Source: a virus
UHGV virus genome: UHGV-0248979
Reading direction: 5' to 3' (one strand)
DNA length: 64,000 bases
A model generated the notes under the pieces. That model did not search any database, was not told where the DNA came from, and was given only the letters and a program-made list of their open reading frames with translations. Positions 20,387 to 55,402 of this stretch are shown in pieces. Made by a program: the position numbers and the translations under genes. Numbering within the stretch: the stretch's first letter is position 1; every line of letters begins with the position of its first letter.

Positions 20387-20395
20387 TGCTTAGCC

Positions 20396-28000: not shown

Positions 28001-29208
28001 CAAATACCGAAGCCATTAAGTCATTGATTATTGACGCGGCAAACATGGTGGGTGTTCCGCCATCCGTTGCGATTGCAATGGCACAAGCAGAATCTGGCTT
28101 ACAGTATGGCAACTACCCTGGCGCATCCTCTGGTAGACCGAGAAGTAATAAGATGTCTGCCGCTGGACTGTTCCAATTTACCAATGGTACTTGGAACGGG
28201 GTTATGAAGCAGTACGCCCGAAGATACGGTATCCCACAAACCGACCAGTTCGACCCGTGGGCTAACGCAATCTTAGGTGTTAACTTCATTAGAGACAACA
28301 TCAAGACCGCACAAAAGGATCTGGGTGGAATTGCCCCACCTCCGGCAGTAGCGTACCTATACCACTTCTTAGGTCCAGGTGGTGGTGCTGAGTTCCTTAA
28401 AGCCTGGAAAACCAATCCTAACGGGTCGCCCGACAAAGTGAAGTATATTACACCTGCTGTTCTTAACGGCAACGAAGGTGTTTTCTATATCATGAACGGG
28501 AAGAAACGCGTTAGGATGCGTACGATCGGTGAGGTTGTCGAGGAACTGAACCGCCGTATGGGCGCGGTTGGAACTAACGAGATTGCGGCAAATCCTGCGT
28601 CTGCGAAAAACATGACAAAAGGGTTATCGCCAGTTCCATCGTCTCCTGCAATTGCTGCTGGCGCAGCTAACGATCCGTCTATTTCTGGTCCGGCAGATAA
28701 CCTGCCAGCCGCGAACGAGGCGAATCGTGACTCCGCTTTAGCAGACAAAGGAGCGATGGGCGCTGAAGATATTAAAGCTGCAACTGGGGGTGGTCCAGCT
28801 GTGCCGAGTCCTGGCGGTGACGTCACGCCAAGTGATGCGTCTGTCGTTGTTGAAACGGTGGGTCAAAATGCGCGTGCTGATGGCCTGGGCGAAGAGGAAG
28901 TTGCCAAAGTAAAAGAAGGTGCTAGACAGCAAATGGAGAAAACAGCTCGTCCTGCGCCAACGGTAACGTCTGATGCACAGACTGCGCCAACGGTGAACAG
29001 CGGTGATCCGATTAGCGTACAGCAGCTGGCGGTTGCAAAAGAGTCTGCGGGTTATCTGAGAGAGATTGTTACAATTCTTCGTCAGCGACCACAGGCTATG
29101 CAGTCCTCCCCAGCTAGTTCGGCGGCTTCTGCCCCGGGGTCAGCATCACGTAACATCGCGGTTGAACAACCTGCCCGCCAACTCGACGTTGGTCGTAAAC
29201 GGGCGTAA
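22045..29208 (+). CDS. giant virion-type protein with transmembrane cluster and C-terminal lytic transglycosylase (SLT) domain
   Basis: 2387-aa ORF; hydrophobic segment ...LPLVGPIVSILGTVGSILGKLAKWGIF...AVGWPIIGLVAAGAGLTWFYY; SLT-like ...AMAQAESGLQYGNY...AAGLFQFTNGTWNG... near C-terminus. Confidence 0.7.
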   Translation: MAKKGKDDFDEIDLDNMDDWDDFDEPPRQQDQSRNPVMDTFRAARKSALSTIWPENKRDQVILKGMPKPAAEAYEGYQNVKAAGQDILAHTKDEIEKTSRVVKMQARQLGPTLKRYLPESVTRKIDKWARNDQIDYGNYDPKQAMMDRELDSVFSGAPQTADQQRETQEGMVEDRLRDTIKDMKSDALFQTVIGIAKDVNLTTSLSRGVLLNVQRKQLELQYRTLFALQDIAKLKQDEFARNTPALEAIVKNTALPDYAKEEFSEVRWANVKRKAAEWMNPLRYADNFVDQIRENAKKKISNIFSDGRGILEQVLGMAQEDDFGMSDSSSLSPDRRNTNSRNKAAGFAGGWLAKRFLQPQIERLQNWTRGELEKNPEVMKRLEKLNYIVSNKSSLSNSAIAGESSGWLADFFRLLNDVGLVNPLRRETLALDDRSAESLSAAAKFDRKAYLSITEVIPTLLSEINKSIRRGYGEHHDQVYDLTTRGMVDRKVIGNRVRKAVANDDQRKRLQTYINDTVDFIDKDKTLDRKTRQALADYIESRASEGKAFDVGSLLKDPMHMYRYMNANAVEAIQGVLEARSAELVGGHHELSNAISNKIAAIQSTIRARQDTVDAASVIYGENALRDSGIFKYDAKKDIFEVDKDINDPYTLFNDLSMGKTRSGRSLTREQEIQRKLQNGSALGDYLRRMGAGAEPSFEDKELSNVRGGGKGGRGRGLSARQLAAVLYGEKSTNFVELLSSRPDTNAGLEHQFDRLIDAVRKQPESSTVQDILKHVKNMDEEGILLASLGGSRDDGDESESSSDSGRKRRRKRKRIVLGETGLLRRWAGVLWDTGSGVGRFGKNLFLRGKDRLQALGGFIRGKFSGGSSEGPGVFSRLKGLVTGTLSTGWNSAVAFGKGVLGVRDIYDERGNVVLQGSRLEAGEYYQADPKTEKLIQLKTLDDIKLGRDIVDEAGNLILAAADLAAAGKLRFYKGGKVQALFQYISGKAGTAVNKAVTLPKKLLGFISPKAASLFEKAREWLNEVPEGAEKTRLQSMISRVTGMPARLWNNAKRGFEKLKELASDNPLTRWWQNRKEGGSGGGFSVFSWSNGRKTNHILIRIYKLLNRRLPGEPEDDTWTEQMERNTGASSVKGLFQRAKDIREGFREHFRGFRDWRGRMRDRMSRYRSAVGGRLSRWGGAARGWFDRFRGRASDMVDTFRDPRYDIGTRYRMESRLAGRDDDVAEFYRQHIYARGKVSKTRIIDAAKEDLDTVTDSAGRVINKGKQKARSVGSALLERLNRMVNLQEMSWFNTMRDSAEKAGASEGLLRTMFSKFGQRNKPPASDEKRDYFQFFRRRRRSKEEEKAKKEAEKKGGKRGVMDFLKGLPLVGPIVSILGTVGSILGKLAKWGIFKPVGFAGKALWNVGKFAVTRLAVPAVSAVATAASAVVTAVGWPIIGLVAAGAGLTWFYYKTKDRVNAQYLDNMRLAQYGFRDHDEWSSDDGAKARYLEDNLKPYISYTENGQAQLRGLSGDDVKKLAEGFGTNVEDKGEMLAFSAFMLQRFVPIYLRWITALRSMDNDIALADVGNPSKVSKADMLTIFNKMKMTKDAPAFKSLTDPRKVNQGWFSKAWDFVTFTPAEFLSGEEVVEAQDRVFRSINMRRDDKRKKTTGAGAVPEGHKVASVAESSQVLAKNDTERNETVAKAEGWEDGTEQVQIQVDWRVLPEKKDLDAMESVRWKSYGVKSVNETTRTLFRLLEKEVLKDTDIKNCIYKGDWKKAISAIAPDAIGGPKEERYKNWFYNRFLPVFMTYVYGVKRYVPHADPLDLKLTGGFLYELALMMRGAYNMKGGIRQSVWEIAFNPLGGDANTDAGSVKEELATLKELSKEPDLAVRNMLKETPSTPKRMTWKSPATNSSVHQTNEDSKERYKGINSYGEASNDGYLPKGGQYGTPGDLSQVVGDMGIGNYAKYSTGQSGITLGELQDGDYKSLVTKYPREMLGKPMQSNTEAIKSLIIDAANMVGVPPSVAIAMAQAESGLQYGNYPGASSGRPRSNKMSAAGLFQFTNGTWNGVMKQYARRYGIPQTDQFDPWANAILGVNFIRDNIKTAQKDLGGIAPPPAVAYLYHFLGPGGGAEFLKAWKTNPNGSPDKVKYITPAVLNGNEGVFYIMNGKKRVRMRTIGEVVEELNRRMGAVGTNEIAANPASAKNMTKGLSPVPSSPAIAAGAANDPSISGPADNLPAANEANRDSALADKGAMGAEDIKAATGGGPAVPSPGGDVTPSDASVVVETVGQNARADGLGEEEVAKVKEGARQQMEKTARPAPTVTSDAQTAPTVNSGDPISVQQLAVAKESAGYLREIVTILRQRPQAMQSSPASSAASAPGSASRNIAVEQPARQLDVGRKRA

Positions 29209-42810: not shown

Positions 42811-43486
42811 ATAAAGCAGCATCCCGTGGGTCGACACCGACCCACTCTGCCATAAACCGGATATGTTCCTTAAACGGGTTAACGCCGTCTTGTTTGATTT
42901 GTTCAACCAACACGCCGGTCAATTCTGGTGTGAGCATGGCAGGGTGTGTGATGGTAAAGCTTGGAATCGGTTTTTTCAAGTGCGAAGCGTTAAGCTTAAT
43001 CCACTCGAACCAATCGTACATTATCCAGCAATCCCACGCCAATGATAATCTCCCCGGTGTGAGGTCTTCTAACGACCAAGACACCAATTCGACTTGTACG
43101 TTATTGTAATACATCCGAAACAGATTCAAAAAGGCTTGAAGTTCTTCGCCTGTTAAATCCGTATAAGGCCATGTATTGATGGTCAGAGTAGGTTTTTCAA
43201 TTGGCGAATGCATTTCGATTTCAAGCATCATACACTCGAATTCGTTTTTCATCGTTGCCAATAATTCAGTAGGCTGCGCATTAATCAAAGCGCGCTTATC
43301 CCGCTTCCGCCACTCTTCATCCCATTTTTCAAACCCGAGTACACCCGCCCATGCTTCTGTATAGCGACGCCGATAAACATCGTAGTCTAGTAAGGCTAAG
43401 CTTTCAGGCTTAATGGCTTTTACCCAACCTAAACGCGTATCAAATAACGTATCAATATCGATTAAGAAACGTCGAGATAATCTCAT
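42764..43486 (-). CDS. hypothetical protein, 240 aa
   Basis: ORF overlapping the next gene by 4 nt. Confidence 0.5.
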   Translation of the reverse strand: MRLSRRFLIDIDTLFDTRLGWVKAIKPESLALLDYDVYRRRYTEAWAGVLGFEKWDEEWRKRDKRALINAQPTELLATMKNEFECMMLEIEMHSPIEKPTLTINTWPYTDLTGEELQAFLNLFRMYYNNVQVELVSWSLEDLTPGRLSLAWDCWIMYDWFEWIKLNASHLKKPIPSFTITHPAMLTPELTGVLVEQIKQDGVNPFKEHIRFMAEWVGVDPRDAALFSLARPVQDVQTPPS

Positions 43487-44151
43487 GACGGATGGCCTAT
43501 GTTGTTACCGATATGCATCGCTTTGAGGTACGCTGACCACGTCCGTGTTGCTTTAGAACTCGTTCGCTCAGCTCCAGGCAAATCGATACGTCCTTTACCG
43601 GTTTGGCGCAGCGACTGATAGAAAGCACGTTGTAGTGCGTCGTTACCACCACGCGCCCACAAGAACTCTTTCAGTGTCCAGTCGTGACCATCGGAATACA
43701 TGATGTATGCTTCTGGGAAGGAGACCCCGGATGCTTTGGAAGGACCGACAACTTGACCGGAGAGTTTATCGCGAACTTTGTCGTTCTTCGCAACCGCCAT
43801 TTTCTTCTCTTGCATCTGCGTCTGACGACGGACAGGCAAGCGTAAGACCAAGTGAGGGTAACGAGTACGGTGATAAACACCTGTTTTTGGTTCTGTTAGC
43901 CACAACCGTTGCTCCAGGTTTACCCCTAGGATTTTGCACACCTCGATATTGCGCAGGTGGTCAATTTCGACTTTACTTCCCACCGGGTTGTAAATAGGTA
44001 AACCGTTACGAAGTCGGTTAAACTGTTCGTCGGTCATTCGTGCGAAGGCTTTCTTCGCGGCTTCGGCATTAATGCCAGAAGGGTCTACCAACTTTAAGAT
44101 TTGTAAGGCGTAGGCTTCCGCCTTTTTACGCCGCGCTGGTTCGAGTTTCAT
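43483..44151 (-). CDS. hypothetical protein, 222 aa
   Basis: ORF in operon. Confidence 0.5.
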   Translation of the reverse strand: MKLEPARRKKAEAYALQILKLVDPSGINAEAAKKAFARMTDEQFNRLRNGLPIYNPVGSKVEIDHLRNIEVCKILGVNLEQRLWLTEPKTGVYHRTRYPHLVLRLPVRRQTQMQEKKMAVAKNDKVRDKLSGQVVGPSKASGVSFPEAYIMYSDGHDWTLKEFLWARGGNDALQRAFYQSLRQTGKGRIDLPGAERTSSKATRTWSAYLKAMHIGNNIGHPS

Positions 44152-44425
44152 TGTCTACCGCCTTACGTAAATTGGATAACGTTTCTGCTTCAAGCAGGTC
44201 AATCCAGTAGCTGATAGCTTCCGTGTTTTCAGGAAGTTCGGAACGTACTGGCGCATACCCGTAACGTACTAATAGATTCGAGTAATACTCAGCGACCTTT
44301 AAACAAAAGGATTCCAGATCGGGAAACGGAAGAGTGAAGGCTTCACGAAATTCGGCCGCTGTTTCTAAATTAACACTTGCCAATCCTTCACTTAAGCGTT
44401 CCACAATCTCCGTTTGATAACGCAT
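44126..44425 (-). CDS. hypothetical protein, 99 aa
   Basis: ORF overlapping neighbour by 26 nt. Confidence 0.4.
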   Translation of the reverse strand: MRYQTEIVERLSEGLASVNLETAAEFREAFTLPFPDLESFCLKVAEYYSNLLVRYGYAPVRSELPENTEAISYWIDLLEAETLSNLRKAVDNETRTSAA

Positions 44426-44439
44426 GATGACTCCTTAGG

Positions 44440-44463
44440 TCGGGTAGGGTTTACCCTACCCGA
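44440..44463. terminator. GC-rich palindromic hairpin
   Basis: tcgggtaggg / ttta / ccctacccga; T-run on + side overlaps the stop of the 44470 gene. Confidence 0.4.
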
Positions 44464-44469
44464 TCCTAT

Positions 44470-45966
44470 TTATTTCTTTTTCGTCAGGAACTTCGGTTCT
44501 AGTCCATCGACAGCCATACCCAGAATAGTACGTGCAGTCAGTGTACGTTTACCACCTTTGGTTTCCTGGTCTTTAAACATCCAGTATTCTACCGTGTTAT
44601 CCAGAATTTCATTCCAGTCCCACTTCTCGTCAATCAGTTTGTAAATCTCACCCATGCTGAGATGATACTTCATTTCAAGACGGTGGTAGTTGTTTTGCAT
44701 ATACGCGATTGCCGCCGTGATTTCTAAAGCGCGACGTAAGCGTGCGTTATCAGAAATCATATCACGGATTGTCGTACGTTGGAATTTCACACCAGGTAAA
44801 ATGTCCAGTTCTTTGATAGAACCGCCACTACCGCTTGACGTAAAACCAAAGTCTGACTTCTTCAGCGTGTCACTTAAATAGTGCCACAGGCTCAGGTGAT
44901 ATAACAGACCCATTTCCTGAGAGAAGATCATCTGGAATTTCACACCGGTGTGACCACCCTTCGCACGATACTGAGTAAAGGTGATAATCTTCAAGTCGTT
45001 TACCGAAGCATTCATCGCTTTAGAACGTGACGTCGGATAAAGTTCTTCGTTAACACCGGTCTGTGCGTTATAGCTCTGGTCTTTCTTCAACTCCCCTGAT
45101 TTCGTCGCGACGATAAAAGAGTTTGTTAAAAAGCTAAGCTGACGGCGAGGAATACCTGCGAATTTTAAATCGTCGTTGGCATCGTCAAGAATTTTCGCAT
45201 TTGCTTTTTGTGCCTGACGACCACCTGCCATCGCTTTCCCAGAGTCATCGGCCATCTGTGCCACGAAACCCATATAGAAACCACCGCGTGCAAACGCAGA
45301 CGGCCAGCGGCTCATCATGTTCGATTTTTGCAGTGCATCGTGGGCGTTCAGGATGTTCTGATCAGAATCACCGATATCTGTTTTTGCGTGTTTGTCTTCC
45401 AGCGAACTGGAATGCCACTCTGACAAAGAGTCGATAGAATAAAGCCAGGGGTCCAGGATTTCTTTTAACTTCCGACGAACCGGATCGGGGAACGGCGTTA
45501 CACGGGTTTTACCAGACATATACTGCTTGAAGCGTTTTTCAACTTCGTCACGAATATAATCACTGTAATACTGTTCCCCAGGCATTACATCAGAACCGAC
45601 CAGGTTATAACGACCTTCGTGGATGAGTTCCAATACGGACGTTCCGTCGTCGATACCGTTGGCGTTCATGGCAGAGATGTACCCAGTTTCTAAACGATCG
45701 AGGGCGGCGGACACTTCTGTATCGTACTTAGAACCCCACTCTGCTTTATAACGTTGCAGGATTTGGAAGATACAGAAATCTAACAAAGTGGATTTAAAGG
45801 TGTTACCGCGACCTGCGAAACCCATGATGTGGGCAAAACCACCGTTAAGGTAGTACAAACCATCTTCACCTTTTTCGTAGTTACCTAAGGCATGATCCAT
45901 GATGGTGTAAACGTTAAAACGTGGACGAATTACTTCACCGATAACTTGCTTAGTTGGGCCTGCCAT
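44470..45966 (-). CDS. UvsX/RecA-family recombinase-like ATPase
   Basis: ...HIMGFAGRGNTFKSTLLDF... closely resembles the T4 UvsX Walker A region ...LILAGPSKSFKSNFGLT... Confidence 0.5.
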   Translation of the reverse strand: MAGPTKQVIGEVIRPRFNVYTIMDHALGNYEKGEDGLYYLNGGFAHIMGFAGRGNTFKSTLLDFCIFQILQRYKAEWGSKYDTEVSAALDRLETGYISAMNANGIDDGTSVLELIHEGRYNLVGSDVMPGEQYYSDYIRDEVEKRFKQYMSGKTRVTPFPDPVRRKLKEILDPWLYSIDSLSEWHSSSLEDKHAKTDIGDSDQNILNAHDALQKSNMMSRWPSAFARGGFYMGFVAQMADDSGKAMAGGRQAQKANAKILDDANDDLKFAGIPRRQLSFLTNSFIVATKSGELKKDQSYNAQTGVNEELYPTSRSKAMNASVNDLKIITFTQYRAKGGHTGVKFQMIFSQEMGLLYHLSLWHYLSDTLKKSDFGFTSSGSGGSIKELDILPGVKFQRTTIRDMISDNARLRRALEITAAIAYMQNNYHRLEMKYHLSMGEIYKLIDEKWDWNEILDNTVEYWMFKDQETKGGKRTLTARTILGMAVDGLEPKFLTKKK

Positions 45967-45981
45967 TTAGCGCTCCGATAA

Positions 45982-46281
45982 TTAACGATTCTTGGTCGGA
46001 AGAAGAAGACGGCGGTTGTGCCAGAATTCAAAGTAGGTCTCTACCCACTCAGTAACTTCTTCCGCATTTTCAGGATAAGGGTTTTCAATAGACTCGAAAC
46101 GGCGTTTGTTACGCTCGTCAATTTCCAGTTCCATAACACGTTTACCGCTCGGGCACGACGTTACGCTCAAGACTTTTCCAACTTGAATAGGCTTACCGTT
46201 CTGACCTTTTTTAACAGGGCTCAGATAAATTTCCGGTTCTAAACGCGGTGTGGTGTTTCGAGTCAGTAATTTGATTTTCAT
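45982..46281 (-). CDS. hypothetical protein, 99 aa
   Basis: ORF 16 nt downstream of the recombinase-like gene. Confidence 0.45.
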   Translation of the reverse strand: MKIKLLTRNTTPRLEPEIYLSPVKKGQNGKPIQVGKVLSVTSCPSGKRVMELEIDERNKRRFESIENPYPENAEEVTEWVETYFEFWHNRRLLLPTKNR

Positions 46282-46379
46282 CGAGCTTTACCTTTATGGA
46301 ATTGTCTCGGTCATAAGGTTTGGGTGAACTGTAAAAAGACTTTACTATGTAACCCTGACTTATAATCCGAGGTTTTAGA

Positions 46380-47135
46380 ATGAATGTAAATCCACTTGCA
46401 GCGTTATCTAGCTTCGCCGCTAAAGCGTCTGCAATCTTACCGAAAGGCTTTAGTGGCCCTCAACAAGAGATTGCATTAACCACTTATGACGAGATGTCGG
46501 ACGTTTCCAAGTGGATGCAACAAGAAAAATTCCTTCACTTTGCGGGAATGTTGGTTATCGTTCCACCTGGGTTTAATACCTACGTGATGGATCATTTGAA
46601 CCGCTTAGAATCCGTATGGAGTTCACTGCAAAACATTTATACGGGTATTCTGTTCCCGGTCGATAAACAACTTTCGGCCCTTACACATGATGTGGGTGTA
46701 CTGTCATTACCGATTGGTTTCCGTTACAAAAATGTTAATATACCTTTACGTAACGTTAACCCGAAAGATCTGGTTAACTTGTTAGCGAAATCGTACACTA
46801 ACAACGTTATTGACCAGCGACCAATCGAGAAGACGTATCACAGCGCGTCCGAAATTGATGTTGCGTTCAATCGTGCTAAGGCACTGAACGTTGAAATCAC
46901 AAAACGTCTACGGACAAACATCGACAAGTCAATCGAGTCTATTCGCACTACGTCAGAAATCTTGTCAGAACAAAACATTCATCCGAATGTAGCAAAAGAA
47001 CTGACGATGATGTTAGATTTTGCTTCCGATTGGGTGGAGCTGTTTGGTTTGTTCATGAAACAGGTTAACGAATTAATCGAATGCCTGAACGTTACTGCCG
47101 AACGCTTAAAAGCGCTTAAGGCAAACAAAAAATAA
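46380..47135 (+). CDS. hypothetical protein, 251 aa
   Basis: + strand ORF ending at a bidirectional terminator. Confidence 0.5.
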   Translation: MNVNPLAALSSFAAKASAILPKGFSGPQQEIALTTYDEMSDVSKWMQQEKFLHFAGMLVIVPPGFNTYVMDHLNRLESVWSSLQNIYTGILFPVDKQLSALTHDVGVLSLPIGFRYKNVNIPLRNVNPKDLVNLLAKSYTNNVIDQRPIEKTYHSASEIDVAFNRAKALNVEITKRLRTNIDKSIESIRTTSEILSEQNIHPNVAKELTMMLDFASDWVELFGLFMKQVNELIECLNVTAERLKALKANKK

Positions 47136-47149
47136 AAAAGTAAAGCTAC

Positions 47150-47173
47150 CCCTAGACCACACGGTCTAGGGGT
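47150..47173. terminator. bidirectional intrinsic terminator hairpin
   Basis: cccctagacc / loop / ggtctagggg with A-run upstream and T-rich downstream between convergent genes. Confidence 0.6.
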
Positions 47174-47180
47174 AAACTAT

Positions 47181-48080
47181 TTATTTCCCACGATAAAATC
47201 CAGAGATGTAGCTTGGCGCTATCCATCGCCATTCGCGCCAACGCATTTCTGACATTTTACCACACCATACACGCTTCCAATGAGCACGACGGATATGTGC
47301 TGCGCAATAAATCGCCAAACAAACCTCGTGTCCCTCCTTGCGTTGTTGTTCTATATCTTCCCATTGTACCGGACTTACGTCTAAAACGACCGCTTCACTA
47401 CGTGGGCGAATCTCTGTATCAGGAACATAACGAATGGTCCTCCCGCGAAATTCTTTCTTCTCACGTTCAGTTCGTTTAATTCGCGATGAAAGATATAGTC
47501 CGATATAGACGGCGTCGAGTAGTCGTTGATTCTCCTTAACCGAAGTAAGGAGCGGCTTTAACTCCACGAAATCATCATTACTTTTATCGATCGTGTAAAT
47601 CTCAAACTCCATGTATACCGACTCGTCATGTTCTTCGCATGACATCACAAAGAGAACTTCTTCACCTTCGTAAAGACGTCTTCCGATAAATAACGTGATT
47701 GGACATTCGTCGAGATTTACGGTAACCGAGAAAGTAAATGAAGGGATGGTTTCTATCCAGAAGTACGGGATATTTTTTAGTCTCTCAGTTTTTGCTAAGA
47801 GCGCCATCAGTTCTTCATCCGAGATGATTTCAACAGCAGCGTATTGCCATCCTAGTCCCAGGGACTGCTTAATCAGTCTGGGAATCTGTTCGGTAACGCC
47901 ATATTCACGATAGGTCGGATCTTTAACTGGCATAAACGTTACGGGTATTTGTCGTTTATGCTCGTTAATGAACCGAATAAAACGGCACTGATCTAATCCG
48001 TGAATTGTTTGGTGTGCTTTTTCTATCTGTTCGCTCATGCGTCTTAGCGCTTTCCCGTAAAGTCTATTATTCGTTGTCAT
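47181..48080 (-). CDS. hypothetical protein, about 300 aa, with C-terminal His/Arg/Trp-rich motif (paralog A)
   Basis: Start moved to ATG at 48080 with AGGAG SD; C-terminal ...CAAHIRRAHWKRVWCGK...RWIAPSYISGFY. Confidence 0.55.
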   Translation of the reverse strand: MTTNNRLYGKALRRMSEQIEKAHQTIHGLDQCRFIRFINEHKRQIPVTFMPVKDPTYREYGVTEQIPRLIKQSLGLGWQYAAVEIISDEELMALLAKTERLKNIPYFWIETIPSFTFSVTVNLDECPITLFIGRRLYEGEEVLFVMSCEEHDESVYMEFEIYTIDKSNDDFVELKPLLTSVKENQRLLDAVYIGLYLSSRIKRTEREKKEFRGRTIRYVPDTEIRPRSEAVVLDVSPVQWEDIEQQRKEGHEVCLAIYCAAHIRRAHWKRVWCGKMSEMRWREWRWIAPSYISGFYRGK

Positions 48081-48105
48081 TTTAATGCTCCTAAACACTT
48101 TTAGC

Positions 48106-49032
48106 TTAATTGTGGGGTACGTAGCCACGGACAAATGTAGGTGGAATCCAACAAAGTTTTCTTTTTCTTTCCCCATCTCTTGGACCGACCCAATATCTGC
48201 GCCAGTGCGCGCGACGAATATGTGCGGCCTTGGCGTGTTTGATACCTTCCATGGTTTTCAAGTCGGTGTTAAATCCCTTTAGATATTTCACTTGTTCTGG
48301 TGTGATGTCTATTTTAACGTCACGTTCACGAGGTTTGATTTCGTGACTTATGCTACCATTCTTTTTGATTTCTTTGAACTTAATGTCATTGAAAGACCCT
48401 CTGAGATTGGGCGGGATTAGCGTACAGAGAAATATCAACGATATGGCGGTTTTGGCCAGTGATAACCATAACGTCTTCTCTTGTTCGGTCTGTACGCCAG
48501 TTGTATAATCGATTTCAACAAGCCCGTTTCCAACACTACATATCTCTAACGAGCAGGTGGCGATTGTGGTAACGCCTTCTGTTAACCCGTAATCAGTATT
48601 TGTAGCAATTATAATAAACCTTCTATTCCCATTTTTTCGATAACCGAGAAAGAAAGTCTCATCTTCTTTACCTACATCGATTGCTACAGTCCAAGTAGGT
48701 ATAAAGTCTAACCACTCTTCAGGGAATTTACTGGGCATCTCAGTCTCGAAAACAAGTTCTCTAAGTGCTCGATCGGATATTAAGGAAGCACCACCGTATA
48801 GCCATCCAATTGCCAATGTTTGAGCGTGAAGAGAACGGGGATCTTTGAGACCTAACTCAGCGTCGTAGGGTATAAAGGCATTAGTTAAATGCTTACGATT
48901 CTTTTTTATCCATTTCGAGACGGGATTTTCTTTTGTTTGATTTTCTTCCATGACATTTTCTAGATGCTGACTCCCCATTTGTCTAAGGCAGTCTTTAACA
49001 CCTTTTACTTTTTTACTTTTGTACAAATACAC
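48106..49032 (-). CDS. hypothetical protein, 308 aa, with C-terminal His/Arg/Trp-rich motif (paralog B)
   Basis: GTG start with AGGAG SD; C-terminal ...AAHIRRAHWRRYWVGP...LCWIPPTFVRGY. Confidence 0.55.
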   Translation of the reverse strand: MYLYKSKKVKGVKDCLRQMGSQHLENVMEENQTKENPVSKWIKKNRKHLTNAFIPYDAELGLKDPRSLHAQTLAIGWLYGGASLISDRALRELVFETEMPSKFPEEWLDFIPTWTVAIDVGKEDETFFLGYRKNGNRRFIIIATNTDYGLTEGVTTIATCSLEICSVGNGLVEIDYTTGVQTEQEKTLWLSLAKTAISLIFLCTLIPPNLRGSFNDIKFKEIKKNGSISHEIKPRERDVKIDITPEQVKYLKGFNTDLKTMEGIKHAKAAHIRRAHWRRYWVGPRDGERKRKLCWIPPTFVRGYVPHN

Positions 49033-49065
49033 GGTATATTCTCCTAAAATGGTTAAAAATAAAGT

Positions 49066-49087
49066 TACCCTAGCCGAAGCTAGGGTG
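49066..49087 (-). terminator. intrinsic terminator hairpin
   Basis: taccctagc / cgaa / gctagggtg; T-run follows on minus strand. Confidence 0.5.
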
Positions 49088-49091
49088 TCTA

Positions 49092-49580
49092 TTAGTCGAT
49101 TTTGACGTAGTCGGGATAGTTAGCTTTTAACCACTCCCATAGCTGTAAGGAAAGTAGGTTTTCACTACGTTCGATGATTTCCATGATATCTGCCACGTAA
49201 GACCCACCAATCCAAATTCGTCTATAAAAATTTTCCCATTCCGGTTCTGTATAGGGAACAATCGGTGTAGGAAATTTCTCTAAATTGTACGCATCGGTAA
49301 CTTTTCTTAAGAACTGATACCGGCAATCGCGAAGGCGTTGTCGAACGTCTGTTTCTGTTATGTGGTCGTTTGATGGATTGAAGAAATCAAACAGGTTAGC
49401 TGTGTATGCTATTATGCTCTGGCAACTGAAGTAGGCCGCAGCGTAATCTGCCATCCAAGGAGTGGAAGCAACCATTGGGGCCAACTTTTCTTCTATTTCT
49501 TTTCTTACACGCGCACCGTGATTGAGAAATTCATGCACAATATCACTTTTACTAAGATTGATAATATCATTTACGTTCAT
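49092..49580 (-). CDS. hypothetical protein, 162 aa
   Basis: ORF in operon. Confidence 0.5.
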   Translation of the reverse strand: MNVNDIINLSKSDIVHEFLNHGARVRKEIEEKLAPMVASTPWMADYAAAYFSCQSIIAYTANLFDFFNPSNDHITETDVRQRLRDCRYQFLRKVTDAYNLEKFPTPIVPYTEPEWENFYRRIWIGGSYVADIMEIIERSENLLSLQLWEWLKANYPDYVKID

Positions 49581-49581
49581 T

Positions 49582-50106
49582 TTACTGTCCTAAAATTGGG
49601 GTGAGTCTGTCTGCGGTGTTTAACAATGCTTTTGTAATTTCGTGGTTGGTCTCTTTTAGGATGGCGCAGCAGAGAGTGGTATAAACCTCGATTGCTAAAC
49701 CGATTTCTTGTTCAGTCAGACACGGTTCGGTGCCGCCAATCCCGTAACGCTGCGCTGCATACTCAATTTCAAGTTTCAAACGTTTTCGTAGTGCCTCGTC
49801 ATCAGTTAAACGCGCGCACGCCCGATCGAAACGTCTATTGTAAGCCTCGATCTTGTGGACAATTTCGCGTCGCAGTTGGTCGACCTTTACGTTATCATCA
49901 AGAGTGATGGTGACGTTGTCAACTAAACAGTAATGCACCGCGTGTCGTAAGTTGTGTAATGTGGCGGCAGTAACGACCCGCTCCTGATGGTCGCTAAAGC
50001 CGTGGGCACCACAGAGCTTGCGTGCAACCGCGCCAGAGATTTTCTCCTCTAACGCTATCGGCGTGGCAATGGTTGTTTTCTTACGAAGCTGAATTAAAAT
50101 ATCCAC
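49582..50106 (-). CDS. hypothetical protein, 174 aa
   Basis: GTG start preceded by CCTAAAGGAG. Confidence 0.5.
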   Translation of the reverse strand: MDILIQLRKKTTIATPIALEEKISGAVARKLCGAHGFSDHQERVVTAATLHNLRHAVHYCLVDNVTITLDDNVKVDQLRREIVHKIEAYNRRFDRACARLTDDEALRKRLKLEIEYAAQRYGIGGTEPCLTEQEIGLAIEVYTTLCCAILKETNHEITKALLNTADRLTPILGQ

Positions 50107-50108
50107 GG

Positions 50109-50651
50109 TTATACTCCTTTAGGTTGTCCGTATTTTGACGATAGGTAGATGAGTTCAGCATGGCAGATTTTCTCAACTAACCCGAGTGTCTCAAGGAAAA
50201 TATCCCGGATACGGGACATCGTTTCGTTGGTAAGAATATCGCTCCAACATGTTGTGTCTATTATATCCGTCGTTGAAGATTGGCGCTGCAATATTGCGAC
50301 ATACACTTCGTCGAGGCTATCTGGTGCATTATTCTGTAAGTAATGGGCGGCATGTAGAAAGGCTTTCTCAAGAATCAGCTGAATATCCGTATCGGGATCA
50401 GTTACCCGTACTAAATGCGGGTATGTCATAGCCGAACTGATTTTTATCACTAACTGCTCAACGAGGTTATTCACCATCGCTTCTGAATCCAGGATAGTAA
50501 TATCAGCTCCATCGTGTTCTTCAGAAATCTTATTCTCATGCACTGCTATCGCATCGTGTAATTCAAACGCAACGCGACTTCGCATCTCACTTAACACTTT
50601 GTTTAATTTGTCCCGTGACTCGCTGAGTGAGAAATCGATAAGTATTTTCAT
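50109..50651 (-). CDS. hypothetical protein, 180 aa
   Basis: Start overlaps stop of upstream gene. Confidence 0.5.
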   Translation of the reverse strand: MKILIDFSLSESRDKLNKVLSEMRSRVAFELHDAIAVHENKISEEHDGADITILDSEAMVNNLVEQLVIKISSAMTYPHLVRVTDPDTDIQLILEKAFLHAAHYLQNNAPDSLDEVYVAILQRQSSTTDIIDTTCWSDILTNETMSRIRDIFLETLGLVEKICHAELIYLSSKYGQPKGV

Positions 50652-51394
50652 TATACGTACTCCTGATAAATTGGCCGACCCCGATCTTCTCGAATCTGGC
50701 AGTATGTTACAACAATACCGTTAGGGATTTGTGCGCCGCTGTCTTCAAGGTAAATAACGCCCGTAGCTTCACAGAGATAAAACGACCACAATCGTGAGAT
50801 ACCAAGCCGTGCGTTCTCGTAGTGACTGAATGGCCAGAAACCACAGTGAATCTCATCATAGTCTCCCCGTTCTATCCCGTAAGCAATCATTTCTTTTTCC
50901 CACAACGTACATTCAGCGTCGTAAGTCGAAAACCAGAAACCAACGAGATTCTTTGTCCGCTTAACGTTCATTAAGTCGTTATAAATGGGAAAGAGTGCTT
51001 TATTGAAATTTTCTAACATCTCTGGAGAGAATAGAAAATTCATGTAGTATTCTAGCCATTGATAAACGGCTTCCCAGACATCTTCAGAAGAGAAATGTTC
51101 GAATACGGCGTCATCGCAATCGTAGTTATCGAAGATCCCTGAGAGATCTATTTCGACGACGCCGCGAAGGTCAAAGTTTCTGTTGGTATTGACAGCGTCA
51201 ATAACCTCAGCGATGAGACGAGTAAAGACGATTGTGCAGGCGGTTTGTGCGGTATAAAAGAATTCTCCTTGTACGGTTGACCACTTCGGGTCCTTCAAAT
51301 GTTCATTGAAGTATTGTGGCCAAATTTTATAAAAGATTCCCTCGAACAACGAGGGATTGATACGTTGTAATTGAGGGACATAAACTTTTAGCAT
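50651..51394 (-). CDS. hypothetical protein, 247 aa
   Basis: ORF with GGAG SD. Confidence 0.5.
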   Translation of the reverse strand: MLKVYVPQLQRINPSLFEGIFYKIWPQYFNEHLKDPKWSTVQGEFFYTAQTACTIVFTRLIAEVIDAVNTNRNFDLRGVVEIDLSGIFDNYDCDDAVFEHFSSEDVWEAVYQWLEYYMNFLFSPEMLENFNKALFPIYNDLMNVKRTKNLVGFWFSTYDAECTLWEKEMIAYGIERGDYDEIHCGFWPFSHYENARLGISRLWSFYLCEATGVIYLEDSGAQIPNGIVVTYCQIREDRGRPIYQEYV

Positions 51395-51430
51395 TCTAAT
51401 AACTCCAATGGTGTTACACCTGGATAATAT

Positions 51431-52099
51431 CTATCTAAGAATATTTTTAATGAAAAAAGGATCGGCTGTAAACTCCTTCACTTGTGAGTCATAACCCGAA
51501 TGTATTTGATCGCTACTGAGCAAATACTGGTCTAGGTCGTGCGGAAGAATCCAAGAATCACCTTGCTTAAAAATACCATAATCTGCTGTTCCTGCGGAAA
51601 AAATGATTTCCTCTGGAAACGAATAGACACGGCGTAAGGCAAGATCGGATGGCTTTAACACGATTAATCGAACGGGATGTTGACTGACTGCCTCTTTAAT
51701 AAACTGTTCACGATTAAACCAAATTATTTTTTCGGGGTAAGTTTCGAATTCAGCCCATGCCCGCGTGATAACTAATTTGGAAATCTTTCTCAATTCTTCA
51801 GAACGCTCTGCGTAGCCGATGCACTCCTTGCGTACTTCATGATTTTCTATCGATGTTGTGAATTTTTGGAATAGGTGTTGTTGGAAAAAGCCGTTCTCCG
51901 GGATATCACAACCCGCGTTGTATAGTGCAATGATCTCCCACAACAACGAAAGAGAAAACACAAATGCTAACTTTTCCACAACTTCCCAATCTTCGGAGTA
52001 AGGGGCTTTAAAGCCCCAATACTGCCGTGCGTTATACATAAAGTGAGTTTGTAAAAACCGAGGGGCTTTTGACAAGACCTCACTATAAACGATCAGCAT
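51431..52099 (-). CDS. hypothetical protein, 222 aa
   Basis: ORF overlapping the RNase H gene end by 7 nt. Confidence 0.5.
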   Translation of the reverse strand: MLIVYSEVLSKAPRFLQTHFMYNARQYWGFKAPYSEDWEVVEKLAFVFSLSLLWEIIALYNAGCDIPENGFFQQHLFQKFTTSIENHEVRKECIGYAERSEELRKISKLVITRAWAEFETYPEKIIWFNREQFIKEAVSQHPVRLIVLKPSDLALRRVYSFPEEIIFSAGTADYGIFKQGDSWILPHDLDQYLLSSDQIHSGYDSQVKEFTADPFFIKNILR

Positions 52100-53613
52100 T
52101 CAAGCTCCTTATCCGTCAATATTCGTTTGTTTGAATAATAGCCGCACCACAAACCATGATATTTTTCCCCGATATAAACCAACGCGTATTCGATATACTG
52201 CCGTTCTGGACGACGTACAGCCACGTAAAACCGCCCTTCCGGTTCTTTGATACGGTTGATTTCCGTACGCGTCGGTATGTCGATACCTCGAGTAAGGATA
52301 GCTTTAACCTTGTTTTTACTACCAGGGATCTTGATGGTTACGTCAAAACCTTTATCTACGTTACGATAAATGTCTTTCTTCGGCTTACCTTTCTCATCGT
52401 AAAGTACGTCAGTAATGTCATTCAACACTACTGAGTTTTTCCCTTCCATGGCATCGCGTAACCAACCTGCAAGCTCATCACGAATCGCAATACAACGATA
52501 AGATAATAGCGCAGGACGAAGAATTCGTGTAATCGAAAGATCTTCAAACATCCACAGGTTTTTGTCTTCACTAAAATGCATCCGATCGATAGGAATGCCG
52601 TTAGCAGCGGCTTCTGCGAACTTCTTGCGCTTTACGAATAAGTTAAAAACAACGGCGATTGGATCAAATTGACGTAAACGGGGCACCCCTTCCCACGCTT
52701 TCGCAGAATGGGTATTTACCAACTCGTATACGTTATCCCACGGTTCTTTGGTAAACATTACGCAGAATTGTGCATCTGGAATGTACTTACCAACGAAGAC
52801 GATATCATCCTTCTGTTTTGCGTGGTTTCCACCGAACATGTAATAAAGTTTATTACCGTTAACTGTAACAGTGGGGTGAGGCTCGTTCACCATCGGGTAA
52901 CAGAACTTCGTAACACAGATATCGGGAAAAGTGGACAAATTGACACCCTCACCAACAACTTCCGGTTGCTGTTCTTCCTCAGGCAGTTCGTCTTTTGACC
53001 AATACGGTGTATAGTCTAACCCCTCCCCTCGGGCAGAGATAATTGAGCCTTTCCGCGCTAACTCGTCTGCGCGTTCGTTTCCATAACGTCCAGAGTGGCC
53101 TTTAATTTTAAGGACACGAACACCTTTCCCTTCTTTCTTTAAGCGCTGTTTAACCACCCACATCCGTTGGATTAATTCCAGATTCGCAATAGGTGTACCG
53201 TCCGCACGACGCCAACCACGTGCTGCCCAACCATCAATCCAGTCGTTATACGTGTTGACAACGTAAGATGCGTCGATATAGATAACGTAGTTTTTGGCAA
53301 CGAAGGGGGCGTGTTCGAAGACGGTCAGGAAAGCCACGAGTTCTGCAACGTCGGAGTGTGACATTTTTGGTACAGGAACAACTCCGTCAATAAACTCCAC
53401 GGTTTCTGGTAAAGGCGGAAGTTTTTCATCTTTGTTTATCTGGCGGTATCCTGACGTCGTAATCCCCTCGGGAATAGTGGGATGGCGGTAAACCCGACCA
53501 TCCTCAATCGCTTCACGATTAAATAAGTATCCATGAATCCCCGCCCCTGTACCGAGCGGGGAAGTCAAATGGCTACCGTCCGTGTAAATTACTGCAACAT
53601 CAACGTTCTTCAT
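52093..53613 (-). CDS. RNase HI domain protein fused to a ~330-aa C-terminal region of unknown function
   Basis: N-terminal ...VAVIYTDGS...IDASYVVNTYNDWIDGWAARGW...KIKGHSGRYGNERADELARKG matches RNase HI catalytic motifs. Confidence 0.7.
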   Translation of the reverse strand: MKNVDVAVIYTDGSHLTSPLGTGAGIHGYLFNREAIEDGRVYRHPTIPEGITTSGYRQINKDEKLPPLPETVEFIDGVVPVPKMSHSDVAELVAFLTVFEHAPFVAKNYVIYIDASYVVNTYNDWIDGWAARGWRRADGTPIANLELIQRMWVVKQRLKKEGKGVRVLKIKGHSGRYGNERADELARKGSIISARGEGLDYTPYWSKDELPEEEQQPEVVGEGVNLSTFPDICVTKFCYPMVNEPHPTVTVNGNKLYYMFGGNHAKQKDDIVFVGKYIPDAQFCVMFTKEPWDNVYELVNTHSAKAWEGVPRLRQFDPIAVVFNLFVKRKKFAEAAANGIPIDRMHFSEDKNLWMFEDLSITRILRPALLSYRCIAIRDELAGWLRDAMEGKNSVVLNDITDVLYDEKGKPKKDIYRNVDKGFDVTIKIPGSKNKVKAILTRGIDIPTRTEINRIKEPEGRFYVAVRRPERQYIEYALVYIGEKYHGLWCGYYSNKRILTDKELEC

Positions 53614-53615
53614 TC

Positions 53616-54350
53616 TTAATCCCTGGTTAATTGATCACGAATCTGCGGCGCAACATACTCGCCAGTTTTCAGTTCTTCGTGACAGGCTTTGGCGCGTTCA
53701 AACCCGTATTGGCGGGTGACCAAAGCGAGGTGATAAATACGTGCCGTGGTGTAGGCTTCTTTTGCTGCATCCCACATTGCGTGGTGCTCAAAAGCGGGCT
53801 TACCGCGTGTCCAATAAACTTGCTCTACCGTTAAGTCGGGTTCGAAACCAAACGCAAAAGCTAAACGCTCTGCGGTACGATCGCTATCCAACGCACTAAA
53901 TTTACGGAACTTCCCTGGCGGAATATCGCATTGTGCGAAAGCGTTTATGAAAATCGGCGCATCGAAGTCGGGACCGCGCATGGTAATAACAAACTCATGT
54001 TTTGCGGTGATCTCCCCGAGCCATTTTTGCATCGCCCACAGAGCATCAGGCAATGCTGTTGTTCCACCCCATGCTTCCGCATAGGCTTCACGAGACGGCG
54101 CGTATTCAGGTTCGCCTTTACCTTCCCACCATCCAACCGTTTGTGGGTCTTCGTGGAAAATAGCTTTTGCTTTAGGGTCATTAGGATCGATACGGATGTA
54201 TGAGGAACCAACCATTTTCAAGGTAGGGACGTCAAACGCCACTAAACCTGCACTCAACAGATAAGCGTCGGGACGTAACGATTTGGTTTCTGCATCGGCA
54301 CCAATAACCAACGTCGGTGTGTACGGGGTGATAATTTTTGGGTAGGTCAT
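53616..54350 (-). CDS. DEDDh-type 3'-5' exonuclease-like protein
   Basis: ...LVIGADAETKSL... (Exo I-like D-x-E) and ...FEHHAMWDAAKEAY... (Exo III-like H-x4-D). Confidence 0.5.
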   Translation of the reverse strand: MTYPKIITPYTPTLVIGADAETKSLRPDAYLLSAGLVAFDVPTLKMVGSSYIRIDPNDPKAKAIFHEDPQTVGWWEGKGEPEYAPSREAYAEAWGGTTALPDALWAMQKWLGEITAKHEFVITMRGPDFDAPIFINAFAQCDIPPGKFRKFSALDSDRTAERLAFAFGFEPDLTVEQVYWTRGKPAFEHHAMWDAAKEAYTTARIYHLALVTRQYGFERAKACHEELKTGEYVAPQIRDQLTRD

Positions 54351-54405
54351 GTTGAATTCTCCTGTTAGTCTACATTAAAATAGTCGTAAACGTTAAAAAG
54401 AAAGG

Positions 54406-54435
54406 CCCTCCTGTACCTCGAAGGGTACAGGAGGG
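54406..54435 (-). terminator. intrinsic terminator hairpin
   Basis: ccctcctgtacc / tcgaa / gggtacaggaggg; A-rich on + side upstream gives T-run on minus strand. Confidence 0.6.
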
Positions 54436-54439
54436 AGTG

Positions 54440-54898
54440 TCAGTACAAACACGATGTCAAGTATTGGTTATACGAATCGAGCAGTGCCTGACGGTCGGAA
54501 CGGTAATTCCACAACAAATTATTGAGTTTACGCGATAAATCACGGCTAATCTCCTGGGCCGTTAAAGAGCTCTCATCAAGAAACATGCGCTCAGGTACAA
54601 CGTGTAATTTCGGTAACTCATAGCGTTCACAAAGTGGAGCCAACATTGGTGGACTCCAGCCACGTTTAGCGGCTTGCTGGTTTAAATTTCGTGTGTAGAC
54701 ATAAACGTAATAAGCATAGGTGTTGACATCTGCAACATACTCACGCATTGCATTCTTGTCAATTTTCCAATTCACCATTATTGGCGGTTCAGGAGGAAGT
54801 TCCAGTGGTCTATAAGCTGGACGTTTAACTTCGTCACCGTAGCTATTACTCACCAACCCCACGAACACTACCATGATGAATAATAGCATTTTCATCAA
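54440..54898 (-). CDS. secreted/periplasmic hypothetical protein, 152 aa
   Basis: N-terminal MMKMLLFIMVVFVGLVSNSYG looks like a signal peptide; no lipobox Cys. Confidence 0.5.
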   Translation of the reverse strand: MMKMLLFIMVVFVGLVSNSYGDEVKRPAYRPLELPPEPPIMVNWKIDKNAMREYVADVNTYAYYVYVYTRNLNQQAAKRGWSPPMLAPLCERYELPKLHVVPERMFLDESSLTAQEISRDLSRKLNNLLWNYRSDRQALLDSYNQYLTSCLY

Positions 54899-55402
54899 TC
54901 ACTCCTTAGAAGACGATAGCGTCTTTATGATCTCCTGTCGAAAACTGTTCGCGTTTAAATTACCAACAGGTCTCGCCGAAGCCTCTTTACGTTGTTCTGG
55001 TGTTGAAGCCGGATTAACAGGAGTTTCTGGTTTTGCCGAGGACAGATCCTTCGTCGTACCGCTCGCTTTCGATGAATTAAACGTGCTTTCATATGGCGGT
55101 TTCTGGCCGAGGCAAACGAAGAGTCTGTCGTATAACTTATCATTATCTTCTTTTAGTTTATCTCGATCTTGTTTCATCTCTTGGTAAGACTGTGACATAT
55201 AAGTGTCATGAGACTGCACTGCAACGAGCGCGTGAAACTGTTGTACATAGGCGTAGGAGACGAAGCCAGAATACGACAACAAGATCGTGATGATTAAAGT
55301 CATTATCTTGCTTGCTCTTGATACGTTTTCTCCTTCTCCTGGTTTAAATGCTTCCATTAACATCTGAAGGAAGAACGGAAGCACTTTAAAAAATGAACCC
55401 AT
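54899..55402 (-). CDS. membrane-anchored hypothetical protein, 167 aa
   Basis: Hydrophobic segment IMTLIITILLSYSGFVSYAYV followed by a charged, probably helical region; contiguous with next gene. Confidence 0.5.
   Translation of the reverse strand: MGSFFKVLPFFLQMLMEAFKPGEGENVSRASKIMTLIITILLSYSGFVSYAYVQQFHALVAVQSHDTYMSQSYQEMKQDRDKLKEDNDKLYDRLFVCLGQKPPYESTFNSSKASGTTKDLSSAKPETPVNPASTPEQRKEASARPVGNLNANSFRQEIIKTLSSSKE

What the first reader, a model, noticed from the sequence alone, without database searches (positions are those of the whole stretch)
47181..49032. Tandem paralogs sharing a C-terminal His/Arg/Trp-rich motif
Seen: two adjacent minus-strand genes of about 300 aa, each with its own SD, ending in near-identical segments: ...AAHIRRAHWKRVWCGK...RWIAPSYISGFY and ...AAHIRRAHWRRYWVGP...LCWIPPTFVRGY. 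The N-terminal regions are more diverged. I do not recognise the motif. Inference: a duplicated gene whose basic/aromatic C-terminal module could bind nucleic acid or form a nuclease-like site, with N-terminal domains diverging under selection (for example anti-defence specificity).
Basis: partly seen in the sequence, partly recalled or inferred. Interest (0 to 1): 0.55.

Follow-up and report, generated by a model that had tools for sequence, protein, structure and literature searches.

The report
Tandem AcrVA2-like genes, jumbo phage
The two neighbouring genes are diverged duplicates of the known AcrVA2/FinQ family, whose founding member makes bacteria destroy the messenger RNA of one chosen protein (Cas12a); here they sit in an SPN3US-like giant phage whose likely hosts are not known to have Cas12a, so the family is known but their targets are not.

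Summary
Genes A (48106-49032, minus strand, 308 aa) and B (47181-48080, minus strand, 299 aa) are full-length paralogs: BLASTP E=4e-20, 23% identity, with an identical AAHIRRAHW core.

- **Sequence:** a 52-sequence family profile seeded on A matches the AcrVA2 crystal-structure sequence (7CI1) end to end, E=5.5e-40.
- **Residues:** all five residues shown by mutagenesis to matter in AcrVA2 (W79, D89, H286, R288, H291) are kept in both. The Cas12a-peptide contacts D129 and D195 are not.

The window is an SPN3US-like jumbo phage. A relative is filed as an Enterobacter ludwigii "plasmid". The gene is single-copy at the same syntenic spot in all 28 matching isolate phage records, and in 61 other viral contigs. 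Two copies occur only in this clade.

The locus evolves much faster than its neighbours. Variation concentrates in the middle domain, and alleles of A and B reassort.

Most likely these are two polypeptide-specific, translation-coupled mRNA silencers with different, non-Cas12a targets. That step is inferred. This is a new member of a known kind, of moderate interest.

The parts
48106..49032 (-). Gene A: AcrVA2/FinQ-family protein, 308 aa, GTG start. It is the copy closer to the single-copy gene of SPN3US-like and Erwinia jumbo phages.
47181..48080 (-). Gene B: second AcrVA2/FinQ-family paralog, 299 aa, ATG at 48080. It is the more diverged duplicate.
48118..48237 (-). C-terminal module of A (residues 266-305). 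It contains H271-x-R273-x-x-H276-W277...W281-G283...W295, equivalent to AcrVA2 H286/R288/H291.
   Evidence: Almost invariant among A orthologs.
47193..47312 (-). C-terminal module of B (residues 257-296), with H262-x-R264-x-x-H267-W268...W272-G274...W286.
48418..48672 (-). Hypervariable middle-domain segment of A (residues 121-205), the presumed target-recognition part.
   Evidence: 39% aa identity between allele types against 70-89% elsewhere; dN/dS 0.41 against 0.07-0.16. It lies inside the 1.2-kb patch where the otherwise 96-100% identical L002 and L005 fall to 69-82%.
47481..47720 (-). Most variable middle-domain segment of B (residues 121-200).
   Evidence: 50% aa identity between B alleles against 59-77% elsewhere.
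49041..49045 (-). Shine-Dalgarno AGGAG of A, 8 nt before the GTG.
   Evidence: conserved in L002, L005 and L075.
48088..48092 (-). Shine-Dalgarno AGGAG of B, 7 nt before the ATG. The A-B spacer is 25 nt.
49067..49086 (-). Terminator-like GC hairpin plus T-tract between the upstream 162-aa gene and A.
   Evidence: A hairpin with a different stem sequence followed by TTTTATTTTA sits at the same place in EC001 and Asesino.
47146..47175 (.). Bidirectional terminator-like hairpin between B and the convergent 251-aa gene (46380-47135, plus strand).
   Evidence: its position is conserved in all relatives.

Best explanation
The pair is a tandem duplication of an AcrVA2/FinQ-family gene in an SPN3US-like (Seoul-like, chimallin-encoding lineage) jumbo phage of Enterobacteriaceae.

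**Shown:** both proteins have the AcrVA2 fold and keep every residue known to be needed for AcrVA2 activity. Both are flanked as a unit by terminator-like hairpins and are probably co-transcribed.

**Inferred:** each protein uses its variable N-terminal and middle domains to bind a particular polypeptide, probably as it emerges from the ribosome. Through the invariant C-terminal H-x-R-x-x-H-W module it then causes loss of the mRNA being translated. The two copies recognise different targets. These are probably host defence or rival-element proteins made in the cytoplasm, and probably not Cas12a. The recognition segment is diversified by mutation and by allele exchange between related phages.
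For: **Family**
- Precomputed PF26125 'AcrVA2-like' on 63-98% identical homologs.
- The family profile matches 7CI1 AcrVA2 at E=5.5e-40 over 12-306 of the profile and 9-318 of the chain.
- The seven-sequence jumbo-phage profile already aligns the C-terminal motif.

**Residues:** AcrVA2 W79/D89/H286/R288/H291 correspond to A W77/D87/H271/R273/H276 and B W78/D88/H262/R264/H267. H, R and H are invariant in 52 members.

**Mechanism of the family:** (Marino et al.; mLife review PMC13131331).

**A different target**
- D129 falls in an AcrVA2-specific insertion that both copies lack, and D195 is not conserved.
- A relative resides in Enterobacter ludwigii.
- Related phages infect Salmonella, E. coli and Erwinia.

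**Arms-race-like behaviour**
- A and B are 27-31% identical to the SPN3US-like gene, while flanking genes are 60-82%.
- The middle domain is the variable part.
- There is a 1.2-kb replacement patch and reassorting allele combinations A1B1, A1B2 and A2B2.

**In-lineage duplication:**
Against: - No experiment exists on these proteins or on any jumbo-phage homolog.
- How AcrVA2 itself destroys mRNA is unknown, and no catalytic activity has been shown for the HxR module.
- The gene holds a fixed syntenic position inside a replication and recombination module (UvsX, RNase H, exonuclease). That looks more like a vertically inherited phage function than a mobile anti-defence cassette.
- dN/dS stays below 1.
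- Host assignment rests on one deposited 'plasmid' and on relatives.
- That Enterobacteriaceae lack Cas12a is my own knowledge and was not tested here.
Confidence: 0.6

Rival explanations
1. They are genuine anti-CRISPRs against Cas12a, like AcrVA2 itself.
For: Same family, fold and active-site-like motif.
Against: - Only about 14-18% identical to AcrVA2.
- The Cas12a 620-636 contact residues D129 and D195 are absent.
- Relatives infect Enterobacter, Salmonella, E. coli and Erwinia, where Cas12a is not known (own knowledge).
- Seoul-like phages encode chimallin, and phage nuclei shield DNA from DNA-targeting Cas enzymes.
- Marino et al. report that most family members occur where Cas12a is absent.
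Confidence: 0.04
2. They are phage housekeeping regulators rather than counter-defence. They would switch off particular host or phage genes at the translation or mRNA level as part of the normal infection or persistence programme. The second copy would add a second regulatory target.
For: - One copy sits at the same syntenic position in every Seoulvirus, Erskinevirus and Alexandra-like record found: 28 records, one place each.
- It is embedded among replication genes.
- Seoul-like phages often persist in their hosts, which might need fine control.
Against: It is the fastest-evolving sizeable gene in the block. Its recognition segment is replaced between near-identical genomes. That pattern is unusual for a regulator of conserved phage or host housekeeping targets.
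Confidence: 0.22
3. They are FinQ-like weapons against competing mobile elements (plasmids or co-infecting phages), not against host immunity.
For: FinQ, a family member on IncI/F-like plasmids, lowers F transfer-gene mRNA. The family is spread over many kinds of mobile elements.
Against: No direct evidence. FinQ is too distant to be found by tblastn in plasmids with A: the only hit is the phage-like Enterobacter record.
Confidence: 0.1
4. A and B work together as one heteromeric machine, or one copy is an inactive decoy or adaptor.
For: They are always found together in this clade, 10-25 nt apart, and are presumably co-transcribed.
Against: - Both keep all five functional residues, so neither looks degenerate.
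- Alleles of A and B reassort independently (A1B1, A1B2, A2B2), which argues against tight co-adaptation.
- Relatives manage with one copy.
Confidence: 0.04

Closest known systems
AcrVA2 (Moraxella bovoculi prophage anti-CRISPR; PDB 7CI1/7CI2; Pfam PF26125 AcrVA2-like)
   Different: - Only about 14-18% identity.
- Lacks the AcrVA2 insertion carrying D129, and D195 is not conserved.
- Encoded by a virulent or persistent jumbo phage of Enterobacteriaceae rather than a Moraxella prophage next to AcrVA1.
- Present as two diverged tandem copies.
- Target unknown and probably not Cas12a.
FinQ (fertility inhibition protein of IncI/F-like plasmids)
   Same: Marino et al. report it as a family member with the conserved HxR motif that lowers mRNA of specific genes in a rival element. 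It is the precedent for non-Cas12a targets.
   Different: Plasmid-borne, and its sequence was not compared directly here. A found no FinQ-like match in the plasmid collection by tblastn.
Single-copy homologs in Seoulvirus (SPN3US-like EC001 MGA_211), Erskinevirus (Asesino gp235) and Alexandra-like Erwinia phages; PHROG 6160 (unknown function)
   Same: Orthologous position between the small-gene block and the convergent 251-aa gene and UvsX. Same terminator-like hairpins on both sides. Same family.
   Different: One copy instead of two, and 21-31% identity to A or B. Annotated only as hypothetical proteins.

Membership tests
AcrVA2/FinQ family (Pfam PF26125) | Significant sequence similarity to the family along the whole length | tested here: met
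   - The A2 profile (A first, 52 members found with a window-seeded profile) matches 7ci1_A at E=5.5e-40 over 12-306/9-318.
- There are 648 representatives at E<=1e-3.
- Homologs at 63-98% identity carry precomputed PF26125.
- Caveat: the local Pfam copy gave no hit, apparently because it lacks this model, and NCBIfam has none.
AcrVA2/FinQ family (Pfam PF26125) | AcrVA2 fold: helical N-terminal domain, beta-rich middle domain, small four-stranded C-terminal domain | tested here: met
   [not shown]
AcrVA2/FinQ family (Pfam PF26125) | C-terminal H-x-R-x-x-H motif (AcrVA2 H286/R288/H291), essential for mRNA down-regulation | tested here: met
   A has H271/R273/H276 and B has H262/R264/H267. The three are invariant in 52 members.
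AcrVA2/FinQ family (Pfam PF26125) | Conserved N-terminal-domain W79 and D89 | tested here: met
   A W77/D87; B W78/D88.
Anti-CRISPR type V-A (functional class) | Residues contacting the Cas12a 620-636 peptide (E98/D129/D195) | tested here: not met
   E98 is kept in A (E96) but is K97 in B. D129 lies in an insertion absent from both. D195 aligns to non-acidic or non-conserved positions. This triad was dispensable in vivo for AcrVA2, so the failure bears on Cas12a specificity and not on the mechanism.
Anti-CRISPR type V-A (functional class) | Inhibits Cas12a, recognises its N-terminal LSKT peptide, and occurs with Cas12a in the host | not testable with these tools
   Needs experiments. The relatives' hosts are Enterobacter, Salmonella, E. 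coli and Erwinia.
AcrVA2/FinQ family (mechanism) | Translation-dependent, polypeptide-specific loss of target mRNA | not testable with these tools
   Known only for AcrVA2. Inferred here from conserved residues.

The most novel reading that the evidence does not exclude
Nucleus-forming Seoul-like jumbo phages do not need DNA-level anti-CRISPRs. They keep AcrVA2-type proteins as programmable, nascent-peptide-directed mRNA silencers aimed at cytoplasmic threats or host functions. In this clade the system has been doubled, and its middle domain behaves as an exchangeable specificity cassette. The two copies silence two different proteins, and allele swaps retarget them. This would give the first natural non-Cas12a targets of the family, in genetically tractable enterobacterial hosts.
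Probability: 0.3. Interest if true: 0.7.

Novelty: new member of a known kind. Interest (0 to 1): 0.4.

Why it matters
AcrVA2 is so far the only bacterial example of a protein that recognises a nascent polypeptide and has its mRNA destroyed. Its authors note that most homologs occur where Cas12a is absent, so their targets are unknown.

This locus offers three things. It shows a conserved homolog in SPN3US-like phages of E. coli, Salmonella and Enterobacter, which are tractable hosts. It provides a natural pair with identical effector motifs but different recognition domains. It also provides natural allele swaps restricted to the recognition segment. Together these make a ready-made experimental design for finding targets and mapping specificity.

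Separately, "hypothetical protein" annotations in at least 28 jumbo-phage genomes can be upgraded to AcrVA2-like. A published BLASTP survey found no verified anti-CRISPRs in nucleus-forming jumbo phages (PMC11448039). That survey missed this distant family.

Tried and rejected
- **Megablast** of the locus against phage genomes found no match.
- **Local Pfam and NCBIfam** scans of A, B and close homologs found nothing. The family name came only from precomputed Pfam labels.
- **Low-complexity or chance motif** is rejected by full-length homology and family-wide invariance.
- **B acquired horizontally from a distant element** is rejected. Its nearest relatives outside its own clade are A and the jumbo-phage single copies at about 1e-21, and the next are at 1e-9.
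- **The three small upstream genes as paralogs of each other** gave no BLASTP similarity.
- **The order of the A, B and single-copy clades** could not be resolved by neighbour-joining (bootstrap 40-42%). The first tree attempt used the wrong ORFs and was discarded.
- **Positive selection** could not be shown. dS is near or at saturation and dN/dS is below 1.
- **Sigma-70 promoter scan** was not above shuffled expectation. No promoter is assigned.

Full report
**1. Observation**

The region holds two adjacent minus-strand ORFs.

- Gene A runs 48106-49032. It is 308 aa, starts with GTG, and has AGGAG 8 nt upstream.
- Gene B is best read from the ATG at 48080 to 47181, giving 299 aa with AGGAG 7 nt upstream.
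- The mechanical 331-aa version that starts at 48176 overlaps A. Orthologs that start at the same codon as 48080 do not support it.

BLASTP of A against B gives E=4e-20 and 23% identity across about 280 residues. They are therefore full-length paralogs, not merely sharers of a motif. The shared core reads AAHIRRAHWRRYWVG in A and AAHIRRAHWKRVWCG in B. A family-HMM scan of every ORF in the 64-kb window finds only these two copies.

**2. What the motif is**

Both proteins match PHROG 6160, which has unknown function. The local Pfam and NCBIfam libraries gave nothing. Their close homologs in the large protein collection, however, carry a precomputed Pfam label, PF26125 "AcrVA2-like". Four independent tests followed.

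- **Narrow profile.** A profile of the two paralogs and five close homologs aligned its C-terminal end to the AcrVA2 crystal-structure sequence: HIRRGHWHGYWQG against HIRRAHWRRYWVG (7ci1_A, E=0.033).
- **Library search.** The same profile, searched against 1.8 billion representative proteins, found 648 relatives at E<=1e-3. Most are 300-380 aa and match from about residue 75 to the C-terminus.
- **Broad profile.** A 52-sequence alignment of these, with A first, matches AcrVA2 end to end: E=5.5e-40, profile positions 12-306, chain residues 9-318.

**3. Functional residues**

Marino et al. (bioRxiv 10.1101/2022.11.29.518452) showed three things about AcrVA2. [quoted passage not shown] It causes translation-dependent loss of cas12a mRNA. 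H286A, R288A and H291A abolish the down-regulation while preserving binding, whereas W79A and D89A weaken activity.

Reconstructing the 7CI1 sequence from the alignment and adding it to the family alignment gives these equivalents:

| AcrVA2 | Gene A | Gene B |
|---|---|---|
| W79 | W77 | W78 |
| D89 | D87 | D88 |
| H286 | H271 | H262 |
| R288 | R273 | R264 |
| H291 | H276 | H267 |

The H, R and H, plus two Trp and one Gly of the module, are invariant in all 52 members.

The acidic triad that contacts the Cas12a 620-636 peptide in the crystal (E98/D129/D195) behaves differently. Only E98 survives, and only in A. D129 sits in an AcrVA2-specific insertion. D195 is not conserved. So the effector-like module is kept while the Cas12a-specific surface is not.

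**4. Genomic setting**

The window encodes split phage RNA-polymerase beta subunits, a tail sheath and a 2387-aa tail protein, which are typical of phiKZ/SPN3US-like jumbo myoviruses.

The neighbourhood is collinear with SPN3US-like Escherichia phage EC001 and Erwinia phage Asesino. The order is exonuclease, RNase H, a block of small genes, the AcrVA2-like gene, a convergent 251-aa gene, a 99-aa gene, then UvsX-like recombinase. Those phages have one AcrVA2-like gene there, annotated as hypothetical.

- tblastn found one place per record in all 28 matching isolate-phage genomes: Seoulvirus, Erskinevirus, Alexandra-like and other Erwinia jumbo phages.
- Near-identical (98-99%) and related 200-225-kb metagenomic contigs carry the tandem pair.
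- A 222-kb circular "plasmid" of Enterobacter ludwigii 51A:C (NZ_CP134650.1) has the same gene order and both paralogs. This points to Enterobacter as a host. It also fits the report that Seoul-like, chimallin-encoding jumbo phages frequently persist in bacterial isolates.
- Across 74 fetched loci containing the family, two copies occur only in this clade. Sixty-one other viral contigs, EC001 and Asesino have one copy within 6 kb on either side.

A GC-rich hairpin with a T-tract sits immediately upstream of A, and a bidirectional one sits after B. Hairpins with different stem sequences occupy the same positions in EC001 and Asesino. The gene or gene pair therefore looks like an insulated transcription unit. 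No promoter could be assigned.

**5. Evolution**

A and B each form a clade with 100% bootstrap support, as do the single-copy genes. Their branching order is unresolved.

- A is closer to the single-copy genes (phmmer 1e-30 to 1e-37) than to B (about 1e-20).
- B's nearest relatives outside its own clade are A and the single-copy genes (about 1e-21). The rest of the family lies at 1e-9 or worse.

So B is an old, faster-evolving duplicate that arose within the jumbo-phage lineage. It is not an import from a distant element.

The locus evolves far faster than its surroundings:

| Comparison | A | B | Flanking genes |
|---|---|---|---|
| Window vs EC001 | 31% aa | 27% aa | UvsX 82%, 251-aa gene 73%, RNase H 64% |
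| Window vs L002 | 68% aa | 62% aa | 85-97% |

Within each ortholog set the variable columns concentrate in the middle domain. A residues 121-205 are 39% identical between allele types with dN/dS 0.41. The rest of A is 70-89% identical with dN/dS 0.07-0.16. The last roughly 100 residues are almost invariant.

Two contigs, L002 and L005, are 96-100% identical over 21 kb. They fall to 69-82% only in a 1.2-kb patch covering the 3' part of the upstream 162-aa gene and the first two-thirds of A. Allele types combine as A1B1 (the window), A1B2 (L005) and A2B2 (L002).

This is localised allele replacement and reassortment, the pattern expected for a specificity determinant in a conflict. Formal positive selection is not shown, because dS is near or at saturation and dN/dS stays below 1.

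**6. Mechanism proposed**

*Shown:* family membership, fold, conserved functional residues, duplication, variable middle domain, conserved C-terminal module.

*Inferred from AcrVA2:*
- Each protein binds a specific polypeptide, probably nascent, through its variable N-terminal and middle domains.
- Through the H-x-R-x-x-H-W module it causes loss of the mRNA being translated.
- The two copies have different targets.

The target is unlikely to be Cas12a. The Cas12a contact residues are missing. The hosts are enterobacteria. Seoul-like phages encode chimallin, and phage nuclei shield DNA from DNA-targeting nucleases. Acting on cytoplasmic translation is compatible with a nucleus-forming lifestyle. 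How the module destroys mRNA is unknown even for AcrVA2.

**7. Rivals**

- A true anti-Cas12a role is improbable.
- A housekeeping or persistence regulator is the most serious rival. It is supported by the fixed syntenic position among replication genes. It is weakened by the extreme divergence and allele swapping.
- A FinQ-like role against competing plasmids or phages is possible.
- An obligate A-B heteromer or decoy is disfavoured, because both keep all key residues and their alleles reassort independently.

**8. Comparison and novelty**

The family (AcrVA2, FinQ, PF26125) and its presence on "megaphages" are already published. This is therefore a new member of a known kind.

Three things are new here. 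A homolog is conserved and syntenic across Seoul-like and Erwinia jumbo phages, where it is annotated as hypothetical and was missed by a BLASTP Acr survey. There is a clade-specific tandem duplication. The middle domain shows cassette-like variability.

Interest is moderate. The finding does not overturn anything. It does make the open question of what non-Cas12a AcrVA2 homologs target directly testable in tractable hosts.

Noticed in passing
L075 (NZ_CP134650.1, 27517-40434); corresponds to window 43000-55000: A 222,441-bp circular 'plasmid unnamed1' of Enterobacter ludwigii 51A:C (gull cloaca) is collinear with the window and carries both paralogs. This suggests the host genus and a persistent or carrier state, as described for Seoul-like phages in bioRxiv 10.1101/2024.12.31.630880.
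   Followed up: partly
window 49092-49580 (-): The 162-aa gene just upstream of A is the most divergent gene of the block: 45-47% aa identity to L002 and L005, where flanking genes are 85-97%. It has no BLASTP match in EC001 or Asesino and no Pfam or PHROG hit. Its 3' part lies inside the same 1.2-kb replacement patch as the 5' two-thirds of A, so it may co-vary with A.
   Followed up: partly
window 50109-52099 (-): Other small genes in the upstream block are also unusually divergent: the 180-aa gene is 60% and the 222-aa gene 57% identical to L002. All have unknown function (phrog_8379, phrog_9472). The whole stretch 47181-52099 behaves as a variable island inside a conserved replication module.
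   Followed up: no
window 49067-49086 and 47146-47175; L001 about 7700-7740 and 8685-8720; L008 about 3835-3880 and 4830-4865: Terminator-like hairpins flank the AcrVA2-like unit in every lineage examined. Their stem sequences are completely different, but their positions and the T-rich tail (TTTTATTTTA) are conserved. The upstream one leaves only about 35-45 nt for a promoter.
   Followed up: partly
window 16220-22015 (-), 5361-7418 (+), 22045-29208 (+): Split phage RNA-polymerase beta-subunit genes (1388 and 539 aa), a tail sheath, and a 2387-aa tail-fibre-like protein with a transglycosylase segment identify the window as a phiKZ/SPN3US-like jumbo myovirus.
   Followed up: partly
window 45982-46281 (-): The conserved 99-aa gene (phrog_10750) has a weak, sub-threshold match to the ASCH domain (E=0.035).
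   Followed up: no
[not shown]
   Followed up: yes
L019 (307-kb contig), L029 (302-kb contig), L066 (210-kb contig): Other, unrelated huge-phage contigs in IMG/VR also carry a single AcrVA2-family gene. Most other carriers are 20-100-kb viral contigs.
   Followed up: no
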